The notes under the pieces are model-generated. The model was not told the DNA's origin. It saw nothing but the letters and a program-made list of their open reading frames with translations, and did not search any database. Below, piece after piece: positions 39,742 through 63,639 of a stretch of DNA of 64,000 nucleotides. The translations under genes were made by a program, and so were the position numbers. Numbering within the stretch: position 1 is the stretch's first letter; each line of letters starts with the position of its first letter. This DNA comes from Escherichia phage phiLLS, in the sequence record NC_047822.1; one strand, written 5' to 3'.

Positions 39742-40443
39742 ATGAAAGTAAAACCATTTGGTATGCTAGATATTGAATCTCTAGGAACTCCAGGAGATTG
39801 TGGTACTACTCATATCGCAATGCCTTCTTTCGCTTTTGTGGCTATGCATGGGATTGACAAAGACCCTGACTTAGTATTTGTTACTTTGGATGTGCAGGAT
39901 CAGCTTAATTCTGGTGCCAAAGTTACAGCATCTACTCTAGCATTCTGGATGGATCAAGCTAAAAATAGCCCCTCTGCTATTCACATAATGGAAGCTATGA
40001 AGGAACGTAATCCAAAACTGATTGCCTTCCAAAATGGTAAACATCACTGTACTAATAAGCTCGGCTCTAACTATGCTGCCTTCTCTATGGCTCAAAATAT
40101 TATGGAGTTGGCTCTAGGCGAAAATGCTTTGTATTATGGCAATGGCCCAGAGTTTGATATGACTATCTACTCTGCAAACACGTTCCATGCTGGAACCAAT
40201 GAAGAGGTAGTTCCGTGGAAATTCTGGAATTTGGGTAATGTTCGATCTCTTCGTAATCTCTGGATGCAAGCTGGATACAGTTATAAGGCTCTAGAGACCG
40301 AAGCTATTAGCTGGGCAATAGCTAAAATGGAGAAGATGGACACCATTCGTTATGGGATCTATCCGGTTAAGCACGACCCAGCATTCGATGCACTAGTTGA
40401 GGGCTATTGTGTTGCAGCTATGATCGAAAAAATGAAAATTTGA
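39742..40443 (+). CDS. putative DEDDh-type 3'-5' exonuclease
   Basis: 233 aa; MLDIESLG (Exo I DxE-like) and YPVKHDPAFDA (Exo III H-x4-D-like). Confidence 0.5.
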   Translation: MKVKPFGMLDIESLGTPGDCGTTHIAMPSFAFVAMHGIDKDPDLVFVTLDVQDQLNSGAKVTASTLAFWMDQAKNSPSAIHIMEAMKERNPKLIAFQNGKHHCTNKLGSNYAAFSMAQNIMELALGENALYYGNGPEFDMTIYSANTFHAGTNEEVVPWKFWNLGNVRSLRNLWMQAGYSYKALETEAISWAIAKMEKMDTIRYGIYPVKHDPAFDALVEGYCVAAMIEKMKI

Positions 40444-40696: not shown

Positions 40697-40749
40697 TAGA
40701 CCAACTTTAAACAAATTCAAATCTCAAACTTCATATAAGGAAGCAAATA

Positions 40750-41388
40750 ATGACTACTCGTATTTCTAAAACTCGCGCTCTAGCAACTATCAAATCTCTG
40801 GAAGCTAAAATCCGTAAAGCTACTGAACAGCAGCTTCTGATCGCTGTTGGTGAAGGTAAGGATAAAAACCAGGTTGTAGTTGGCGCTGCAATCGAAGTAG
40901 CTGATCTGTCTACTCGTATTAAGACTGATTTCCAGTCTCTGCTGGATATGATGTCCCAGCGTGATTGTATCAAAGCTGCTCTGATTAAAAGCAATGCGGA
41001 AACAATCGTTGAGATTGGCTCTCGTAAGATGACTGTTGCGGAAGCAATTGAAGCTAAGCGTTCTATGGAACTTAAAGCCCAATTGCTGGCTAACATGCGT
41101 AAGCAGTTCCATGCCGCTACGGTTAAGTTTAATACGCAGAAAGCACAGTTTGATGCTAAATATGAGCGTTTGCAGGATAGCATGGCTACCCGCGATAAGA
41201 AAACTTCCGAAGATGAAGTTAAAATGCAGCTCAACCTGCTGGAACTCAAGAATACTCCATTCTTGATTGATCCGCTGGAACTGGAAAAGCTGATTAAGCA
41301 GCATGACGAGGAATACCAGGACTTTGCAACAAATGTTGACTTTGTTCTGTCCGAGTCTAACGCCTCTACCTTCATTGAAGTAGAGTAA
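40750..41388 (+). CDS. hypothetical protein
   Basis: 212 aa ORF; antisense ORFs 40731-41430 rejected. Confidence 0.55.
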   Translation: MTTRISKTRALATIKSLEAKIRKATEQQLLIAVGEGKDKNQVVVGAAIEVADLSTRIKTDFQSLLDMMSQRDCIKAALIKSNAETIVEIGSRKMTVAEAIEAKRSMELKAQLLANMRKQFHAATVKFNTQKAQFDAKYERLQDSMATRDKKTSEDEVKMQLNLLELKNTPFLIDPLELEKLIKQHDEEYQDFATNVDFVLSESNASTFIEVE

Positions 41389-41771
41389 TAATTTAAAAGC
41401 TAGTAAATCGGTAGACGAAAGCCCAAGCATCTTACCTCGCAGCAGCGGTTGAAATACGAGGTTAAATAAGACCGCTGACCATACTATAAAATATAATCTA
41501 TTGGAGATTATGTTTATTACACCAGCCTTTTAAGCTGACACGTAAGAACAAAGCGTCGTTGATATTACCGACACAACTTCAAAGATCAACATTTAAGTAT
41601 GAAAGCTGAAAAGTTTAAAGAACTCAAACTTCTAAACTTCTAAAGCTAAAAGATGCAAAGTATTCGTTGATGATTCAAACCCTAGATCAAAGGTACATGG
41701 CTCATAAGATATGGCCTGTGGCGCCTCTAGGCTGTTTATCGGTTTACTAGTTTCACAATTTAAAAATGTAT

Positions 41772-41800
41772 TTGCTAATTTACTAAGTTATCTGTATAAT
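41772..41800 (+). promoter_or_regulatory. sigma70-type early promoter
   Basis: TTGCTA-17-TATAAT. Confidence 0.55.
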
Positions 41801-41830
41801 ATATTTTTAAATTGATGAAACGAGGCTATT

Positions 41831-42148
41831 ATGACTTTTCATATTTTGATTGATGATGTGCGTAATCTTCACGGAATGGACATTATCATTCGAACCCCAG
41901 AAGCCGCTGTCGAGTTTCTGAATAAAACTGATACCACAGGCCACTTCGTTTATATGGATAATGACTTGGCTGTAGATGGTATGGAAGGTTATCAAATTCT
42001 TCGTTTACTCTTAGAATTTGGGCAGAGACCAAAGAAAGTGGTACTAGTAACCTCGAACCCAGTAGCTAAGCAACATATGCGTAATGATTTGCTTGACTTA
42101 GGGTACAAAGAAAGCCCCAATCGTGTTGAATATGATTGGCAGGAGTAA
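41831..42148 (+). CDS. stand-alone CheY-like receiver (REC) domain protein
   Basis: 105 aa; ILIDDV acidic pocket, FVYMDNDL (phospho-acceptor Asp region), VVLVTS (conserved Thr/Ser), downstream Lys; alignable to CheY by eye. Confidence 0.5.
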   Translation: MTFHILIDDVRNLHGMDIIIRTPEAAVEFLNKTDTTGHFVYMDNDLAVDGMEGYQILRLLLEFGQRPKKVVLVTSNPVAKQHMRNDLLDLGYKESPNRVEYDWQE

Positions 42149-42603
42149 AAAGAATGAAGGCAGCTTTGCTTTTAGTAGCTGCCCTTACCTTCAGCTTTAG
42201 TAGTCAGGCATCGCACGATGCAAAAGAAATAGATTGCATTGCTAAAAATATCTATTTCGAAAGTCGTGGTGAGGGCATAAAGGGAATGACGGCGATTGCA
42301 CACGTTACTAAAAACCGTGTAAACTCCGGTAAATTCCCAGATTCCTACTGTAAAGTAGTATATCAGTCTAACCAGTTCTCTTGGGTATCTAAGAGACCAA
42401 AAGTTGATAAAACTGATGAGGCTTGGCAAACCGCTAAGAATTTAGCTAGAGTGATATACTACGTTGATTTACCACAAGATCCTACACATGGAGCACTATA
42501 CTTCCATAGTGGTAAAGATAAACCTTACTGGACAAAGAAGTTTAAGAAAACAACTAAGATTAAGGGACATACGTTTTATAAACCTGTTGTCACTAAAACT
42601 TAA
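42136..42603 (+). CDS. secreted SleB-like cell-wall hydrolase
   Basis: 155 aa; N-terminal signal peptide; NIYFESRGEG...AHVTKNRV...YCKVVYQSNQFSW. Confidence 0.65.
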   Translation: MAGVKRMKAALLLVAALTFSFSSQASHDAKEIDCIAKNIYFESRGEGIKGMTAIAHVTKNRVNSGKFPDSYCKVVYQSNQFSWVSKRPKVDKTDEAWQTAKNLARVIYYVDLPQDPTHGALYFHSGKDKPYWTKKFKKTTKIKGHTFYKPVVTKT

Positions 42604-43339: not shown

Positions 43340-44135
43340 AACAGCGAGCCGATTACGCTGAACTTGTCTTAATGTAAGATGCGTCGAGCACTAAGATTCG
43401 TTGAATAGAGTCGGTGGGTTAGTTGTAAAACTAGTACACAGGGGGCGGCAATCCCGGTTAGTGGCTAGAACGTGTAAAATGAGGCGTCTGAAACCTCTCC
43501 CCTAAACTCTTCTCTAATTTATAAATAGTGGGGTGTGGAAATCACTTATGTAGTAACACTGCCGTCCTAGTATAATTGGTATTATCAAGCCGTAACCGGT
43601 GGAAGATGTAGGTTCGAATCCTACGGTCGGTAAGAACTGGATAACTGATGCTTTTAACGTAAAAGCTTCCGAGGTTAGTTGCGCACTGCCTAAACCACGC
43701 GGTAGTTGGTTCCAGACTAACCAACCAGTCTGCTGAATAGTTTTATTACGATTTAACTATGTCCAGGCTAAAGAAGAACTTTAGAAGGTATTCTAGGATA
43801 GTGAAGTTCTTTCTCCATATCGGAGTAGTTTTTCAAGCTATCCACAAAGTGGGAAATGCTGACATGAGAGATGTCACTAATGGTGCACAATAGCACAGGT
43901 AATTCGCGATAACTCCTGTTGAGTAGCAGCAAAAGGCGGGAAGTCATGACCCCAAGCCTAACCGAGTCCTCAATATACCGCAGGACATAACCACTAAGTC
44001 ACCCTGACTTAAACTGGAAAATAATAGACGTTACTGTATTTTGTCTTGAAATACTTAATGAGTGAGACTTATGACTCTCCCGGTATCGTCTGTATTTTTA
44101 AGAGTTTTTTACGAGAGTTCTTAAAAATACTTAAA
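43340..44135 (+). ncRNA. candidate non-coding RNA region (promoter-driven, ORF-free, tRNA-like fragments)
   Basis: ~800 bp with no ORF above ~26 codons; internal T-arm-like GTAGGTTCGAATCCTAC at 43608-43624; several hairpins. Confidence 0.3.
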
Positions 44136-44244: not shown

Positions 44245-45192
44245 ATGTTTGCTACTAAAAATATGAAAGAACTGACTTCTGAGCAGAAAGTAATTCGTAC
44301 TATTAAACGTTGGGGTATTGGTGCTGTAGTTGGTTTAGCAGGTTTAGTCCTAGCTTTTAATTCATATACTATTGTTTCTGATGGTACGGTTAAAACCCAA
44401 ACATTCCTGGGTAAAGTAGACCCTAATCCTGTATTACCTGGTTTTCATCTTGTAAACCCATTTGCATCTTTCGATACTTTTAGTACAAAAGACATTGCTG
44501 TAAAATTAGATAAACTTCAGGTTCCTAGTCAGGATAAGTTTAAATCCACTGTTGACCTGACTGTTATGTTGCAGTTTGATGGTTCTAAGGCACCAATTAA
44601 CCGTATTAACGCAGGTACTCAGGACCAGGCGCTAGACAAGTATGTAACTGAAAAATTACTGTCTACTATTCGTGAGTTTGGTAAATCTGTACCTAAAGCA
44701 CAAGATTTATTTGATGCTAAAATTCAGGCTCAATTGCAAACTGCAATTCAACAGGAAGTTGAAGAGTATGCACGCCCATATGGTTACACAGTTAAGCAGG
44801 TGTTTCTTCAGGATATTACTTTGCCACCAGTAATTATGGAGCAAGTACAAAATACAAAAGTTCGTGAAGAACAAGTTAATGCGGCTAAAGCTGAATTGGC
44901 TCGTGTTGAACAAGAAGCACAGCAGAAAGTCAAACAAGCTGAAGCAGATCGTGAAGCACGTAACAACCAAGCTATCGCTAATGAACGTGACGCCGATGCT
45001 AAGCTGTATGCAGCTAAGAAAGAAGCTGAAGCTAACGCCGCATTGCAACGTACCATTACTCCTGAGATGATTCGTTGGAAGCAATTGGAAGTCGAAATGA
45101 TTCGTGCTCAGAAATATCAAGGTGGTGTACCTCAGACTGTGGTAGGTACTGGCTACGATGGTCAAATGATCATGGATATGCGTAATAAATAA
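44245..45192 (+). CDS. SPFH/band-7 (HflC/prohibitin-like) membrane protein
   Basis: 315 aa; N-terminal TM helix, SPFH-like core, long Ala/Gln/Glu-rich coiled coil. Confidence 0.7.
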   Translation: MFATKNMKELTSEQKVIRTIKRWGIGAVVGLAGLVLAFNSYTIVSDGTVKTQTFLGKVDPNPVLPGFHLVNPFASFDTFSTKDIAVKLDKLQVPSQDKFKSTVDLTVMLQFDGSKAPINRINAGTQDQALDKYVTEKLLSTIREFGKSVPKAQDLFDAKIQAQLQTAIQQEVEEYARPYGYTVKQVFLQDITLPPVIMEQVQNTKVREEQVNAAKAELARVEQEAQQKVKQAEADREARNNQAIANERDADAKLYAAKKEAEANAALQRTITPEMIRWKQLEVEMIRAQKYQGGVPQTVVGTGYDGQMIMDMRNK

Positions 45193-45302: not shown

Positions 45303-45516
45303 GTTTGGTTTCTTAGAACCATATACTCTTGTTACAGCAACCACCCATACGGGAGGCCAATCTTGACTGAAAATCTACTCTAGGGGGCAGGATAAGAGTA
45401 GGCTTAAAGGCAAAGGGATTGAACGCCGGTATTTGTGTAAACATTGCTGGAGAGCAACAACGTGCTACAGGCATTGGGCAGCACGAAACAGATTTTCTGC
45501 AACACATAATTTCTCC

Positions 45517-45933
45517 TTAGGAGTTATTACCACCATTTTGAGCTTTTGCAACTTGGCTTTGGCAGAAGCTATTAAACTTACCCATAAGTGATACAAGCTG
45601 TTTCCCATCCTCTGTCTTTGCGAAGTCTTCGAAAAGGGCTAGTACTGCCTGTCCTTCCGCAGAAACCTGCGGTTGTTGGGTTTGTTGCTGAACTTGCTGC
45701 TGAGCCACCTGTTGCTGCATTTGTTGAGGCATTTGCGACTGCCCGCTCATTTGCTGCATCATTTGCATAGGACTCACACTTCCAGGGTTTTGCTGGAGTT
45801 GTTGCTGCATCTGTTGCGCTTCTGCTAAACGCTGTTGCAATTGTTGTAAGTAGGGGTTATCCAGACCCGGAATGGGCTGCTGGGAGCCCCTACTTTGATT
45901 AAGTCCGTTATTTACAAAACCATATTTACTCAT
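45517..45933 (-). CDS. Gln-rich low-complexity protein (hypothetical)
   Basis: 138 aa; poly-Q/QQM repeats; co-oriented with 45955-46947. Confidence 0.55.
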   Translation of the reverse strand: MSKYGFVNNGLNQSRGSQQPIPGLDNPYLQQLQQRLAEAQQMQQQLQQNPGSVSPMQMMQQMSGQSQMPQQMQQQVAQQQVQQQTQQPQVSAEGQAVLALFEDFAKTEDGKQLVSLMGKFNSFCQSQVAKAQNGGNNS

Positions 45934-45954
45934 AATGGGCTCCTCCCCCTAATA

Positions 45955-46947
45955 TTAAGCCGGCAGTTTAGCCTGCAGACCAGCCAGAGTCTGAGTGATA
46001 GCACCAAGACTTACAGCGATTTGATTAATTACCTGACCGTTAGCACCGTTACCCGCAGCGATTGCTTCACGTAGGCGACATGCATCTAACTCATCCTGAA
46101 TACGAGCAGTAGTTACACCAGCGATAGCAGTCTGAAGTTCACAGCAACATTCAGCGATCTGACGTTCCAGAGAGTTCTGGTTAGCACACATCTGAGCCTG
46201 AACAGCGGCAAACTGGTTATTAGTTTGTAAAGTCTGCTGGAAAGCGATCTGTGCAGAATCAAACTTATCTTGTGCACGAGCTATCTGATTAGCTGCGAAA
46301 GATTGATCAATCTGGCGAGAAAGATCGAACTGACCCTGAATAACGTTGCGAGTTTCCTGACAGATCTGATTAGACAGATTAGCACCTGTACCATAGATCG
46401 TAGTTAGTACAGACTGAGTATCACGGCTCTGGTTTTGGGATGTCTGGCTAAACCCATTGTTAACTGCGCTTAAAACAGCTCCAGTACCCTGGTTAGCTTC
46501 TGTACGAGTAGTGTTAATAGCTGCTAGAATACTAGCGGTATCTTGGTTCTGAAGTACTGCATCAACTGCGGTACCATCACCAACTACACCACGTCCACCG
46601 AATCCACCGAAACCACCGAATCCGCCTGTTAATAGAGCACCGATTAGGATAGCTCCGAATAGTCCCATACCTTCACCACCGAAAGCACCTGCGTTTGCTG
46701 GGTAACCACCCAGTAGGCCAGGGAAGCCACTAGTAAATACGTTTACTGGTTCTTGCATTTTATGTTTTCCATATTTATGACAATGTTCATCGTCATCTTC
46801 TTCATCATCGTGTTCACGATGTTTTTCTTCGTAGGCTCTGACCTTCTCCCACTTTTTCTTATCTGATTCCTCGTGACGGTGCAGTTCTGCTGCAACGCTA
46901 GCGACGGTCTCAGGACTCTTAGCTACTTCTTCTGTCATTTTTGACAC
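45955..46947 (-). CDS. Gly-rich / Gln-Asn-Ala-rich hypothetical protein with His/acidic N-terminus
   Basis: 330 aa; strong SD (AGGAGGTG); GGFGGFGGFGG hydrophobic Gly segment; C-terminal half predicted helical. Confidence 0.6.
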   Translation of the reverse strand: MSKMTEEVAKSPETVASVAAELHRHEESDKKKWEKVRAYEEKHREHDDEEDDDEHCHKYGKHKMQEPVNVFTSGFPGLLGGYPANAGAFGGEGMGLFGAILIGALLTGGFGGFGGFGGRGVVGDGTAVDAVLQNQDTASILAAINTTRTEANQGTGAVLSAVNNGFSQTSQNQSRDTQSVLTTIYGTGANLSNQICQETRNVIQGQFDLSRQIDQSFAANQIARAQDKFDSAQIAFQQTLQTNNQFAAVQAQMCANQNSLERQIAECCCELQTAIAGVTTARIQDELDACRLREAIAAGNGANGQVINQIAVSLGAITQTLAGLQAKLPA

Positions 46948-56230: not shown

Positions 56231-56599
56231 ATGAAAGCATATCAAAACCTTAAATCTGGCGTAATTAATATTGTTCATAATAATCAGATCATTCAGCTAT
56301 ACTCCGACAATGGTGAACTTAAACAGAAAGTTCTAGTTGAAGATCTAGAAGGTATTACACCACAATTCGATCCTGAATCCTTCCGTGAAGTTAAGGTGGA
56401 AGTCGCCCCTCAAATCGAAGGTGGTCAGCACCTAAATGTCAATGTATTAAGCCGTGATCAGCTTTTGGATGCACAGAAACATCCTGAAAAGTACCCTCAA
56501 TTAACTATCCGTGTTTCAGGGTACGCTGTACGTTTTAATGCACTGACTCGTGAACAGCAGAACGACGTTATTAGTCGTACATTTACTCAGGCGATGTAA
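56231..56599 (+). CDS. grcA: autonomous glycyl-radical cofactor (GrcA/YfiD-like)
   Basis: 122 aa; C-terminal [19 protein letters not shown] glycyl-radical signature. Confidence 0.75.
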
Positions 56600-62572: not shown

Positions 62573-63229
62573 TTGGAAAAGTTCTTACAATTATTAACGG
62601 TACTGCTCCAAGAAGCGAAAGATCCAGCATCGCTTCTTAAACGTCTGCTAACTATCTTAGTTGCTGTCATTATTTTCTTATTTGTTAGTAATACTAGCGA
62701 GGTGATGTCATTCTTAAAGACTTTCTCCACGTCTGCGGTCCTACAGGATGTTCAAACTCAAAGGATAGATAACTTTCCTAATGTAGCTAGAGAAAAGAGC
62801 ATGGTACTCTTTTCTCAAACGGGTGCGGATGCTGTTTTTGTCGTCAAGTATAAACCCGATGCCATTAATGATTATTCTAACATTATTGCATGGGAAAGCA
62901 ATGCGCAATTAGATAGGGCTGACTTGGCCGATAAAGCGGTAAATAAAACGTCTGAGCTATATAGACGTCACTTGGAAGGCTTTAACTACGCATCGGATTT
63001 AAGTGTAAAAGTAAATAAATACATGGGGTTAAATATACCTGCGTTTAAGAACGTTACTTTTAATTACATATACACTTGTCCATATTTCAATCTAAACAAT
63101 ATCTATGCTGGATATATTGGTATTGCTTGGAAAGATAATCCTGTAGATGCAGCCGATTCTGAGAAATTTAACGAGTATTTAACAAAGCTCTGTTCCCCAC
63201 AACAGAGATCTTTAGGTAGATCAATATGA
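62573..63229 (+). CDS. putative holin
   Basis: 218 aa; N-terminal TM helix; immediately upstream of and overlapping endolysin; TTG start with AGGAGG SD. Confidence 0.6.
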   Translation: MEKFLQLLTVLLQEAKDPASLLKRLLTILVAVIIFLFVSNTSEVMSFLKTFSTSAVLQDVQTQRIDNFPNVAREKSMVLFSQTGADAVFVVKYKPDAINDYSNIIAWESNAQLDRADLADKAVNKTSELYRRHLEGFNYASDLSVKVNKYMGLNIPAFKNVTFNYIYTCPYFNLNNIYAGYIGIAWKDNPVDAADSEKFNEYLTKLCSPQQRSLGRSI

Positions 63230-63639
63230 GTTTTAAATTTGGTAAAAATAGCGAAAAACAATTAGCTACCGTTAAGCCAGAGCTACAAAAAGTAGCTCGT
63301 AGAGCTTTAGAATTATCTCCATATGATTTCACGATCGTACAGGGTATTCGTACAGTAGCACAAAGTGCCCAGAATATTGCTAATGGTACTTCATTTTTAA
63401 AAGATCCTAGTAAAAGCAAGCATATTACTGGTGATGCTCTTGATTTTGCTCCATACATTAATGGCAAAATTGATTGGAATGACTTAGAAGCATTTTGGGC
63501 AGTTAAAAAGGCTTTTGAACAAGCGGGTAAAGAACTAGGCATTAAACTTCGTTTTGGTGCTGATTGGAATGCTTCGGGAGACTATCACGATGAAATAAAA
63601 CGTGGTACCTATGATGGCGGTCATGTCGAACTAGTTTAA
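63226..63639 (+). CDS. endolysin, L-alanyl-D-glutamate peptidase-type
   Basis: 137 aa; Zn-ligand pattern (H...D...H) typical of T5-type endolysin. Confidence 0.8.
   Translation: MSFKFGKNSEKQLATVKPELQKVARRALELSPYDFTIVQGIRTVAQSAQNIANGTSFLKDPSKSKHITGDALDFAPYINGKIDWNDLEAFWAVKKAFEQAGKELGIKLRFGADWNASGDYHDEIKRGTYDGGHVELV

What the first reader, a model, noticed from the sequence alone, without database searches (positions are those of the whole stretch)
41831..42148. Stand-alone CheY-like receiver domain encoded by the phage
The 105-aa protein aligns by eye to response-regulator receiver domains: an acidic pocket (IDD), a putative phospho-acceptor Asp in FVYMDNDL, a conserved Thr/Ser in VVLVTS and a downstream Lys. 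It has no output domain. It could intercept host two-component phosphorelays or act as a phosphate sink early in infection.
Basis: partly seen in the sequence, partly recalled or inferred. Interest (0 to 1): 0.55.

Follow-up and report, generated by a model that had tools for sequence, protein, structure and literature searches.

The report
Phage cREC: trimmed receiver-fold enzyme
The 105-residue early protein of this T5-like phage really has a CheY-type receiver fold, but it belongs to the already described cREC family, a trimmed phage version predicted to be a phosphate-cleaving enzyme and not a signalling receiver.

Summary
The ORF at 41831-42148 (+) is real: ATG start, GAGG ribosome-binding site, promoter-like site upstream, and dN/dS of 0.06-0.15 against orthologues. 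It is the orthologue of phage T5 gene T5.084.

Helices alpha1 and alpha5 are missing. The conserved Lys of receivers is replaced by Ser95, in a variable column. The family instead keeps D8, D9, R11, R21, D43, D45, G53 and N76, with Thr or Ser at position 74.

Near-identical proteins are already named cREC in GenBank and UniProt. The family was defined by Iyer et al. (2021, 2022), who report it is never linked to histidine kinases and has not been characterised experimentally.

Verdict:
- The receiver-fold observation is confirmed, except for the Lys.
- The idea that it intercepts host phosphorelays is not supported.
- The most likely role is a small Asp-based phosphoesterase acting on cyclic-phosphate RNA ends or nucleotides. 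This is inferred, not shown.
- It is a known family, so interest is modest.

The parts
41772..41800 (+). Sigma-70-like early promoter candidate (TTGCTA, 17-nt spacer, TATAAT)
   Evidence: Consensus scan, 10 of 12 matches. T5 carries an annotated promoter directly upstream of the orthologue T5.084. A consensus match alone is weak evidence: the region has no more such sites than shuffled sequence.
41822..41825 (+). Shine-Dalgarno-like GAGG, 5 nt before the ATG
   Evidence: Read directly from the sequence.
41831..42148 (+). cREC gene, 105 aa plus stop; orthologue of T5.084
   Evidence: ORF list. Pfam PF20274, E 1.6e-14. phrog_1479, E 1.8e-29. Proteins 92-98% identical are named 'cyclic-phosphate processing receiver domain-containing protein'. 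dN/dS 0.06-0.15.
41852..41863 (+). Codons for D8-D9-V10-R11: the acidic pair at the end of beta1, followed by a near-invariant Arg
   Evidence: D8 and D9 are each 147 of 150, R11 is 139 of 150. They align to CheY D12/D13. Beta1 spans residues 4-7 in the model.
41957..41965 (+). Codons for D43-N44-D45: acceptor-position Asp plus an invariant Asp at D+2, a DxD motif at the end of beta3
   Evidence: D43 and D45 are each 149 of 150. D43 aligns to CheY D57 and D45 to N59. The family motif is DHDLG in 182 and DNDL[GA] in 57 of the 280 sequences held.
42050..42058 (+). Codons for T74-S75-N76: Thr at the end of beta4 plus a near-invariant Asn at T+2
   Evidence: Position 74 is Thr or Ser in 149 of 150; N76 is 147 of 150. 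T74 aligns to CheY T87 and N76 to E89.
42113..42115 (+). Codon for S95, the position equivalent to the receiver Lys (CheY K109)
   Evidence: hhalign pairs GYKESP with GYVVKP. The column is variable in the family.

Best explanation
The gene encodes a stand-alone cREC domain (Pfam PF20274). This is a phage-borne, trimmed derivative of the receiver fold that keeps the phosphoryl-binding aspartate cluster but has lost the surfaces and the lysine used in two-component signalling.

Shown here:
- It is an early gene under purifying selection.
- It has a receiver-like fold without alpha1 and alpha5.
- All invariant polar residues (D8, D9, R11, R21, D43, D45, T74, N76) lie at or just after the C-terminal ends of beta1 to beta4. 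That is the canonical receiver active-site position.

Inferred:
- The pocket is a catalytic site for a phosphoester or phosphotransfer reaction on a nucleotide or RNA-end substrate.
- D43 would be the nucleophile or phosphate-binding residue.
- D8 and D9 would hold a divalent cation.
- D45 at D+2 would act as general acid/base, as in the DxD motif of HAD phosphatases.
- N76, R11 and R21 would take over the phosphate contacts that the missing Lys normally makes.

Following Iyer et al., the most likely substrates are 2',3'-cyclic phosphate RNA ends or ADP-ribose 1'',2''-cyclic phosphate. In a T5-like phage, whose adjacent tRNA cluster is known to counter host tRNA-cleaving defences, the protein would help clean up or detoxify cleaved-RNA ends or cyclic-phosphate nucleotides early in infection.
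For: Membership:
- PF20274 scores 54.8 bits against a gathering cutoff of 27.
- phrog_1479, E 1.8e-29.
- 439 representatives at 50% identity and at least 5113 clusters at 90% identity. Nearly all are about 100 aa and carry only PF20274.
- The best BFVD structural matches are named cREC proteins.

Fold:
- pLDDT 90.7.

Active-site pattern:
- Residue conservation comes, residue equivalences.
- D+2 and T+2 are the receiver positions that contact attacking and leaving groups and set the reaction kinetics (PMC12632262). Here they are fixed as Asp and Asn.

Context:
- Within 3.5 kb of cREC genes in 26 non-redundant loci I found RtcB RNA ligase twice, AAA_33 kinase-like twice, and HAD_SAK_2, Thg1 and SIR2 once each.
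- The RtcB genes lie 0.6 kb and 2 kb downstream on the same strand in L030 and L027.
- In this window the neighbours include an Rv2179c-like 3'-5' exoribonuclease domain, a YqeY-like protein and 21 tRNA genes.

Literature:
- cREC was defined and predicted to resolve cyclic phosphates. It is reported as never linked to histidine kinases, and as linked to Nudix, sirtuin, 2H, RNA ligases and WYL (PMC7824862 and PMC9503650).
- T5 tRNAs neutralise tRNA-targeting defences (PMC11464382 and PMC11555353, listed).
Against: - No biochemical data exist for any family member. PMC9503650 states this, and four literature searches found nothing newer.
- Most loci show no RNA-repair partner. blastp clustering of neighbours across 37 loci found no family in more than 5 loci. 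Three Pfam-annotated loci are simply blocks of small accessory genes, with ArdA, AbiEii or a DNA methylase nearby.
- This window contains no detected RNA ligase, Nudix, 2H or sirtuin gene.
- The gene directly downstream, probably co-translated, is a secreted cell-wall hydrolase, which has no obvious link to RNA ends.
- I could not inspect model coordinates, so the pocket geometry is inferred from strand positions and not measured.
- Iyer et al. call the site metal-independent, whereas receiver chemistry needs Mg2+. The catalytic details are open.
Confidence: 0.5

Rival explanations
1. One reading: a CheY-like single-domain response regulator that host histidine kinases or acetyl phosphate phosphorylate on D43. 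It would divert or drain host phosphorelays early in infection.
For: - Receiver fold.
- The DD pair, D43 and T74 are conserved and align to the CheY quintet positions.
- Substitutions at the Lys do not always abolish phosphorylation chemistry in receivers (PMC12632262).
Against: - No Response_reg hit at all.
- The Lys is absent.
- Alpha1 is deleted and alpha5 is absent. From established knowledge, these form the kinase and Hpt docking surface.
- The family is mainly in phages (or prophages) and is reported never to co-occur with histidine kinases.
- The same invariant residue set is kept in phages from very different environments and hosts. That fits a common small substrate better than specific host kinases.
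- The extra invariant R11, R21, D45 and N76 are not explained by a signalling role.
Confidence: 0.07
2. A non-catalytic binder. The conserved acidic and arginine pocket would sequester a phosphorylated nucleotide messenger, as phage sponge proteins do. Alternatively the protein acts as a pseudo-receiver adaptor that binds a host or phage protein.
For: - It is small (about 100 aa) and stand-alone.
- It sits in early or accessory blocks next to anti-restriction and anti-defence genes in some loci: ArdA in L007 and Tad3 in one neighbourhood.
- By Bourret's definition, a receiver lacking the Lys is a pseudo-receiver.
Against: - Pseudo-receiver families generally lose the active-site residues. Here they are invariant and reinforced by D45 and N76 at the positions that govern catalysis.
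- Recurrent fusion and operon links to enzymes such as Nudix, RNA ligases and sirtuin, reported in PMC9503650, suggest a step in a pathway.
Confidence: 0.2
3. An Asp-based phosphatase or phosphotransferase acting on a substrate unrelated to cyclic phosphates or RNA repair, for example a nucleotide monophosphate, (p)ppGpp-like alarmone or acyl phosphate. This would fit the nucleotide-metabolism block upstream.
For: - In T5-like phages and in phage My1 the gene lies just downstream of nrdAB, frd, thy and rnh.
- Thymidylate synthase recurs near cREC in 5 of 37 loci and in 2 of the 147 neighbours scanned.
- One neighbourhood has adenylosuccinate synthetase and one has an HD_4 domain.
- The DxD geometry resembles HAD phosphatases (own knowledge).
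Against: The same weak-linkage problem applies: no partner recurs widely. The RtcB, HAD_SAK_2, Thg1 and SIR2 neighbours and the published contexts point to RNA ends or ADP-ribose derivatives.
Confidence: 0.2

Closest known systems
cREC / cRec domain, Pfam PF20274 (Iyer, Anantharaman, Krishnan, Burroughs, Aravind; Viruses 2021, PMC7824862, and Viruses 2022, PMC9503650)
   Same: - The HMM match is well above threshold.
- It is stand-alone, about 100 aa and phage-encoded.
- The aspartates are conserved.
- Near-identical T5-like proteins already carry this name.
   Different: - In the window the gene is not next to Nudix, sirtuin, 2H or an RNA ligase.
- The T5-like clade has DNDLA where the family consensus is DHDLG.
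- Its C-terminus is distinctive, conserving ...NR.EYD... (N97, R98, E100, Y101, D102).
Canonical receiver domains (CheY, Spo0F, PhoB N-terminal domain; Pfam PF00072)
   Same: - The DD pair, the Asp at the end of beta3, the Thr at the end of beta4, and the aromatic residue at K-3 (Y92 = CheY Y106) are all present.
   Different: - No PF00072 hit.
- No alpha1 or alpha5.
- The Lys is replaced by a variable position.
- D+2 is fixed as Asp and T+2 as Asn, and there are two extra near-invariant arginines.
- No kinase partner is reported.
HAD-superfamily phosphatases (DxD motif I). This is a 'works-like' comparison only, from my own knowledge.
   Same: An Asp followed two residues later by a second Asp at the C-terminal end of a central parallel strand, with further acidic residues that could hold Mg2+. 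In HAD enzymes the first Asp is the nucleophile and the second is the general acid/base.
2H phosphoesterases (for example LigT, and Acb1-type phage enzymes)
   Same: The predicted job is the same: resolving 2',3'-cyclic or 1'',2''-cyclic phosphates in RNA repair or nucleotide-signal degradation (PMC9503650).
   Different: The fold and catalytic residues are unrelated: two HxT/S motifs against an Asp cluster. This is an analogy of role only.

Membership tests
cREC (Pfam PF20274) | Score above the Pfam gathering threshold over the full model | tested here: met
   54.8 bits against 27. Residues 4-87 match model positions 2-86 of 88.
cREC (Pfam PF20274) | Receiver-like Rossmannoid fold | tested here: met
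   [not shown]
cREC (Pfam PF20274) | Conserved catalytic aspartates shared with receiver domains | tested here: met
   D8, D9, D43 and D45 are invariant in A2 and 98-99% conserved across 150 representatives.
cREC (Pfam PF20274) | Genomic association with RNA-repair or NAD/ADP-ribose-processing genes and never with histidine kinases | tested here: inconclusive
   The window has an exoribonuclease-like gene, a YqeY-like gene and 21 tRNAs nearby, but no ligase, Nudix, 2H or sirtuin gene. Across 26 loci: RtcB twice, and HAD_SAK_2, Thg1 and SIR2 once each. No kinase family appears among those displayed, but only 25 of 76 families were shown.
cREC (Pfam PF20274) | Cyclic-phosphate phosphoesterase activity | not testable with these tools
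   This is a prediction only. PMC9503650 states the family is experimentally uncharacterised.
Canonical receiver domain (PF00072, CheY-like) | Match to the Response_reg profile | tested here: not met
   No PF00072 hit at E<=10. Best PDB sequence match to CheY has E 0.9.
Canonical receiver domain (PF00072, CheY-like) | Complete (beta-alpha)5 topology | tested here: not met
   The model has beta1, a loop, beta2, then three helix-strand units, and ends at residue 105. hhalign shows a 10-residue deletion at alpha1. There is no alpha5.
Canonical receiver domain (PF00072, CheY-like) | Acidic pair (DD) after beta1 | tested here: met
   D8/D9 align to CheY D12/D13 and are invariant.
Canonical receiver domain (PF00072, CheY-like) | Phospho-acceptor Asp at the end of beta3 | tested here: met
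   D43 aligns to CheY D57 and is 149 of 150. Only the position is met; phosphorylation was not tested.
Canonical receiver domain (PF00072, CheY-like) | Thr/Ser at the end of beta4 | tested here: met
   T74 aligns to CheY T87. The column is Thr in 113 and Ser in 36 of 150.
Canonical receiver domain (PF00072, CheY-like) | Conserved Lys after beta5 | tested here: not met
   S95 aligns to CheY K109. The column holds K 21, N 20 and S 17 of 150. By the definition in PMC12632262 this makes it a pseudo-receiver.
Canonical receiver domain (PF00072, CheY-like) | Cognate histidine kinase or Hpt partner, and phosphotransfer | not testable with these tools
   The window ORFs I scanned gave no kinase family, but I did not scan every ORF. 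The literature reports no kinase linkage.
HAD phosphatases | DxDx(T/V) motif on beta1 of a HAD Rossmannoid core with squiggle and flap | tested here: not met
   [not shown]

The most novel reading that the evidence does not exclude
cREC would be the first receiver-fold domain working as a true enzyme and not as a switch. In T5-like phages it would be a counter-defence factor. It would open or remove the 2',3'-cyclic phosphates left on tRNAs by host anticodon nucleases, or degrade a cyclic-phosphate nucleotide messenger. In this way it would act alongside the adjacent phage tRNA cluster, which is already known to neutralise PARIS and retron effectors.
Probability: 0.3. Interest if true: 0.65.

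Novelty: already known. Interest (0 to 1): 0.3.

Why it matters
The sequence itself adds little. The family has a Pfam entry, two descriptive papers and database names on near-identical proteins.

What remains open is the biochemistry. cREC is very widespread in phages (at least 5113 clusters at 90% identity), and no member has been assayed.

T5 is a tractable model phage, and its neighbouring tRNA genes were recently shown to be counter-defence tools. T5.084 and its orthologues would therefore be a convenient entry point for testing whether a receiver fold has been turned into a cyclic-phosphate or RNA-end-processing enzyme.

The residue map given here gives concrete mutants and a reason why kinase docking is unlikely:
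- a DxD motif at positions D and D+2;
- Asn at T+2;
- two arginines in place of the Lys;
- loss of alpha1 and alpha5.

Tried and rejected
- NCBIfam and PADLOC scans of the protein gave no hits.
- PDB sequence searches gave nothing usable. With the single sequence, the top hits were spurious de novo beta-trefoil proteins, and CheY scored E 0.9. With the family profile, the top hit was a spurious TALE-repeat protein (Hax3), and receiver domains scored only E 0.08-0.6.
- The search for related loci with the broad alignment A2 failed because no stretch was conserved enough. A narrower alignment, A3, worked.
- blastp clustering of all neighbouring ORFs in 37 loci found no conserved partner.
- I looked for the sirtuin plus HAD 'Swiss-army-knife' pair that PMC9503650 reports for phage SP15. 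Window ORFs and eight T5 early ORFs outside the window gave no Sir2 or HAD hit, so the pair was not located.
- The N-terminal extensions seen in a few family members were examined. One is an HNH homing-endonuclease fusion, probably a gene-call fusion. The others have no Pfam domain, so they were not informative.
- Functional coupling to the downstream cell-wall hydrolase was considered and rejected. The adjacency is broken in phage falkor by an extra ORF and is absent in phage My1.
- Literature searches for T5.084, YP_006912 and KVP40.0304 found nothing relevant.

Full report
**The observation.** The window is part of a T5-like phage genome (Demerecviridae, Tequintavirus). The 4-kb stretch around the finding is 98.6% identical to Escherichia phages vB_EcoS_FFH_1 and SP15 and matches 448 phage records. 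GAGG lies 5 nt before the ATG. A TTGCTA-17-TATAAT site lies at 41772-41800. The T5 orthologue is T5.084 (YP_006912.1, 'hypothetical protein, similar to KVP40.0304'), and it has an annotated promoter directly upstream.

The gene is under clear purifying selection. dN/dS is 0.10 against Salmonella phage S116 (87% nucleotide identity, 28 synonymous and 14 non-synonymous differences). It is 0.15 against T5 and 0.06 against SIA3lw. So this is a real, expressed-looking early gene.

**What the protein is.** Pfam gives no Response_reg (PF00072) hit even at E<=10. It gives a full-length hit to PF20274 cREC_REC, 'Cyclic-phosphate processing Receiver domain' (E 1.6e-14, 54.8 bits, cutoff 27). PHROGs places it in phrog_1479, function unknown (E 1.8e-29). 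NCBIfam and PADLOC have nothing. Proteins 92-98% identical are already named 'cyclic-phosphate processing receiver domain-containing protein' in GenBank and UniProt.

**Where it departs from CheY.** The model runs beta1 (4-7), a loop, beta2 (18-20), helix (23-32), beta3 (39-42), helix (53-62), beta4 (69-72), helix (77-90), then a short strand or hairpin to residue 105. Helix alpha1 is missing and there is no alpha5.

I aligned the family profile (99 sequences, A2) to a small CheY/Spo0F/PhoB profile. The alignment covers 92 columns at E 1.8e-4 and shows a 10-residue deletion exactly where alpha1 lies. A separate alignment to CheY alone gives the same register. The equivalences to CheY are:
- D8/D9 = D12/D13
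- D43 = D57
- D45 = N59 (position D+2)
- T74 = T87
- N76 = E89 (position T+2)
- Y92 = Y106
- S95 = K109
- P96 = P110

Four of the five receiver 'quintet' residues are therefore present, but the Lys is not.

**Family-wide conservation.** An exhaustive HMMER search found 439 representatives at 50% identity. A second search found at least 5113 clusters at 90% identity. Nearly all are stand-alone proteins of about 100 aa. Counts across 150 representatives:

| Residue | Count of 150 |
|---|---|
| D8 | 147 |
| D9 | 147 |
| R11 | 139 |
| D17 | 125 |
| R21 | 146 |
| D43 | 149 |
| D45 | 149 |
| Position 47 (G; Ala here) | 141 |
| G53 | 149 |
| P67 | 140 |
| Position 74 (T or S) | 149 |
| N76 | 147 |
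| Y92 | 136 |

One search gives the same picture on alignment A2. The K109-equivalent column is variable (K 21, N 20, S 17).

The family signature is therefore lIDDxR ... D..R ... lD[HN]DLG ... G ... P..v.lv[TS]xNPV[GA]. That is a receiver core with four additional near-invariant polar residues and without the Lys. In the terminology of Bourret and colleagues, a receiver lacking any quintet residue is a pseudo-receiver. D+2 and T+2 are the positions that touch the attacking and leaving groups and set the phosphotransfer kinetics (PMC12632262).

**How it most likely works.** All invariant polar residues sit at or just after the C-terminal ends of beta1 to beta4. In a parallel flavodoxin-like sheet these ends converge on the receiver active site. 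I inferred this from strand positions, because I could not open the model coordinates.

An Asp cluster in which the central Asp is followed two residues later by a second invariant Asp resembles the nucleophile plus general acid/base pair of HAD phosphatases (my own knowledge, an analogy only). Together with the fixed Asn at T+2 and two arginines that could replace the Lys-phosphate contact, this reads as a catalytic or tight phosphate-binding pocket, not a conformational switch.

From established knowledge of kinase-regulator co-structures, alpha1 and the beta5-alpha5 region form the face that histidine kinases and Hpt domains dock on. Losing both argues against phosphotransfer from host kinases.

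Iyer et al. defined this family in 2021. They noted that it is never found with histidine kinases. They found it linked to NAD/ADP-ribose-processing and RNA-repair genes (Nudix fusions, sirtuin, 2H, RNA ligases, WYL). They proposed that it resolves 2',3'-cyclic RNA ends or ADP-ribose 1'',2''-cyclic phosphate. In 2022 they stated that it remained experimentally uncharacterised (PMC7824862 and PMC9503650). My literature searches found nothing newer.

**Independent look at context.** In this window the gene sits in the early region. Upstream are nrdAB, frd, thy and rnh and a protein annotated as 'metallopeptidase', which in fact matches an Rv2179c-like 3'-5' exoribonuclease domain. Downstream are a secreted Hydrolase_2 cell-wall hydrolase, a YqeY-like protein and then 21 tRNA genes. 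The hydrolase ATG at 42154 follows an AGGAG that lies inside the last cREC codons.

The adjacency to the hydrolase is not conserved. An extra ORF intervenes in phage falkor. In Pectobacterium phage My1 the gene sits near rnh, separated from it by one small ORF.

I collected 27 viral and 5 genomic loci with distant homologues, plus three Pfam-annotated contigs. blastp clustering of all neighbours found no partner family in more than 5 of 37 loci. A Pfam scan covered 147 neighbours of at least 115 aa, within 3.5 kb, in 26 non-redundant loci. It found:
- RtcB twice
- AAA_33 twice
- HAD_SAK_2, Thg1, SIR2, Tad3 and HD_4 once each
- Band_7 twice
- thymidylate synthase twice

No kinase family was among those displayed, but only 25 of 76 families were shown. 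The two RtcB genes are 0.6 kb and 2 kb downstream of cREC on the same strand. In L030, RtcB is followed by a Band_7 gene, as the tRNA-proximal Band_7 gene follows in this window.

There is therefore a real but minority RNA-repair flavour, consistent with the published inference. Most stand-alone cREC genes simply float in blocks of small accessory genes. The window itself has no detected RNA ligase, Nudix, 2H or sirtuin gene. Eight T5 early ORFs outside the window also gave none.

**Rivals.**
Against it stand the missing Lys, the missing alpha1 and alpha5, the absent Response_reg match, the phage-dominated distribution and the unexplained extra invariant residues. I give it about 0.07.
- *A non-catalytic nucleotide sponge or adaptor.* This is possible given the small size, the accessory-block location and the ArdA or Tad3 neighbours in some loci. 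However, pseudo-receivers normally lose the active-site residues and do not reinforce them. About 0.2.
- *An Asp-based phosphatase on some other phospho-substrate tied to nucleotide metabolism.* This is also open, given the recurrent thymidylate synthase and the nrd, frd and thy block upstream. About 0.2.

**Comparison with the known, and verdict.** This is a member of the cREC family. It meets the HMM, fold and residue criteria. The association criterion is inconclusive here and the activity is untestable with these tools. It is not a member of the canonical receiver family. It works, at most, like a HAD-type Asp phosphoesterase and would play the role of a 2H phosphoesterase, without being related to either.

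The functional interpretation is not supported. Because the family, its name and its predicted role are already in Pfam, UniProt, GenBank and two papers, novelty is 'already known'. Interest is modest (0.3). The open point is the untested biochemistry of a very widespread phage protein, in a model phage whose neighbouring tRNA genes are established counter-defence tools (PMC11464382 and PMC11555353, listed).

Noticed in passing
window 43561-43632 (+): A tRNA-like element scores 35.5 bits against Rfam tRNA (gathering score 29), but ARAGORN does not call it. It lies in the stretch equivalent to T5 'RNAX', a 719-nt stable RNA of unknown function between the YqeY-like gene and tRNA-Arg. Some related records annotate it as 'tRNA-OTHER'..
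   Followed up: partly
window 39742-40443 (+): This gene is annotated 'putative metallopeptidase' in most related phage records ('exonuclease' in T5). It matches the Pfam Rv2179c-like 3'-5' exoribonuclease domain (E 3.1e-8), so the common annotation looks wrong..
   Followed up: partly
window 40731-41430, both strands: Three long ORFs overlap almost completely: 212 aa on the + strand, and 214 and 216 aa on the - strand. The + strand ORF is annotated 'tail fiber protein' in relatives although it sits in the early region, and it has no Pfam match..
   Followed up: no
window 42154-42603 (+): A Hydrolase_2 (SleB-like) cell-wall hydrolase with an N-terminal signal-like sequence is encoded in the early region. 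It is probably translationally coupled to the cREC gene. It is separate from the holin and endolysin cassette at 62573-63639..
   Followed up: partly
window 41389-41830; L043 3395-4847 (phage falkor): The 442-bp gap upstream of cREC has no ORF of 60 aa or more. In phage falkor the same gap holds a homing endonuclease. There the cREC allele is only 55% identical, although the flanking gene order matches the window, and an extra 174-aa ORF follows it. This suggests allele replacement at this spot..
   Followed up: partly
window 44245-45192 (+); L030 8352-9398: A Band_7/SPFH gene lies a few genes downstream of cREC in this window. One also follows the cREC and RtcB genes in an unrelated viral contig. 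Band_7 appeared twice among the 147 neighbours scanned..
   Followed up: partly
window 56231-56599 (+): A 122-aa protein carries only the C-terminal glycine-radical motif (Pfam Gly_radical, E 3.2e-18). It is encoded just after the tRNA cluster..
   Followed up: no
window 45313-46947 (-): A small island of minus-strand ORFs (64, 138 and 330 aa; the two larger have no Pfam match, the smallest was not scanned) interrupts the otherwise + strand early and tRNA region. It corresponds to T5.077-T5.079, which in T5 are bounded by a bidirectional terminator and a mapped DNA nick..
   Followed up: no
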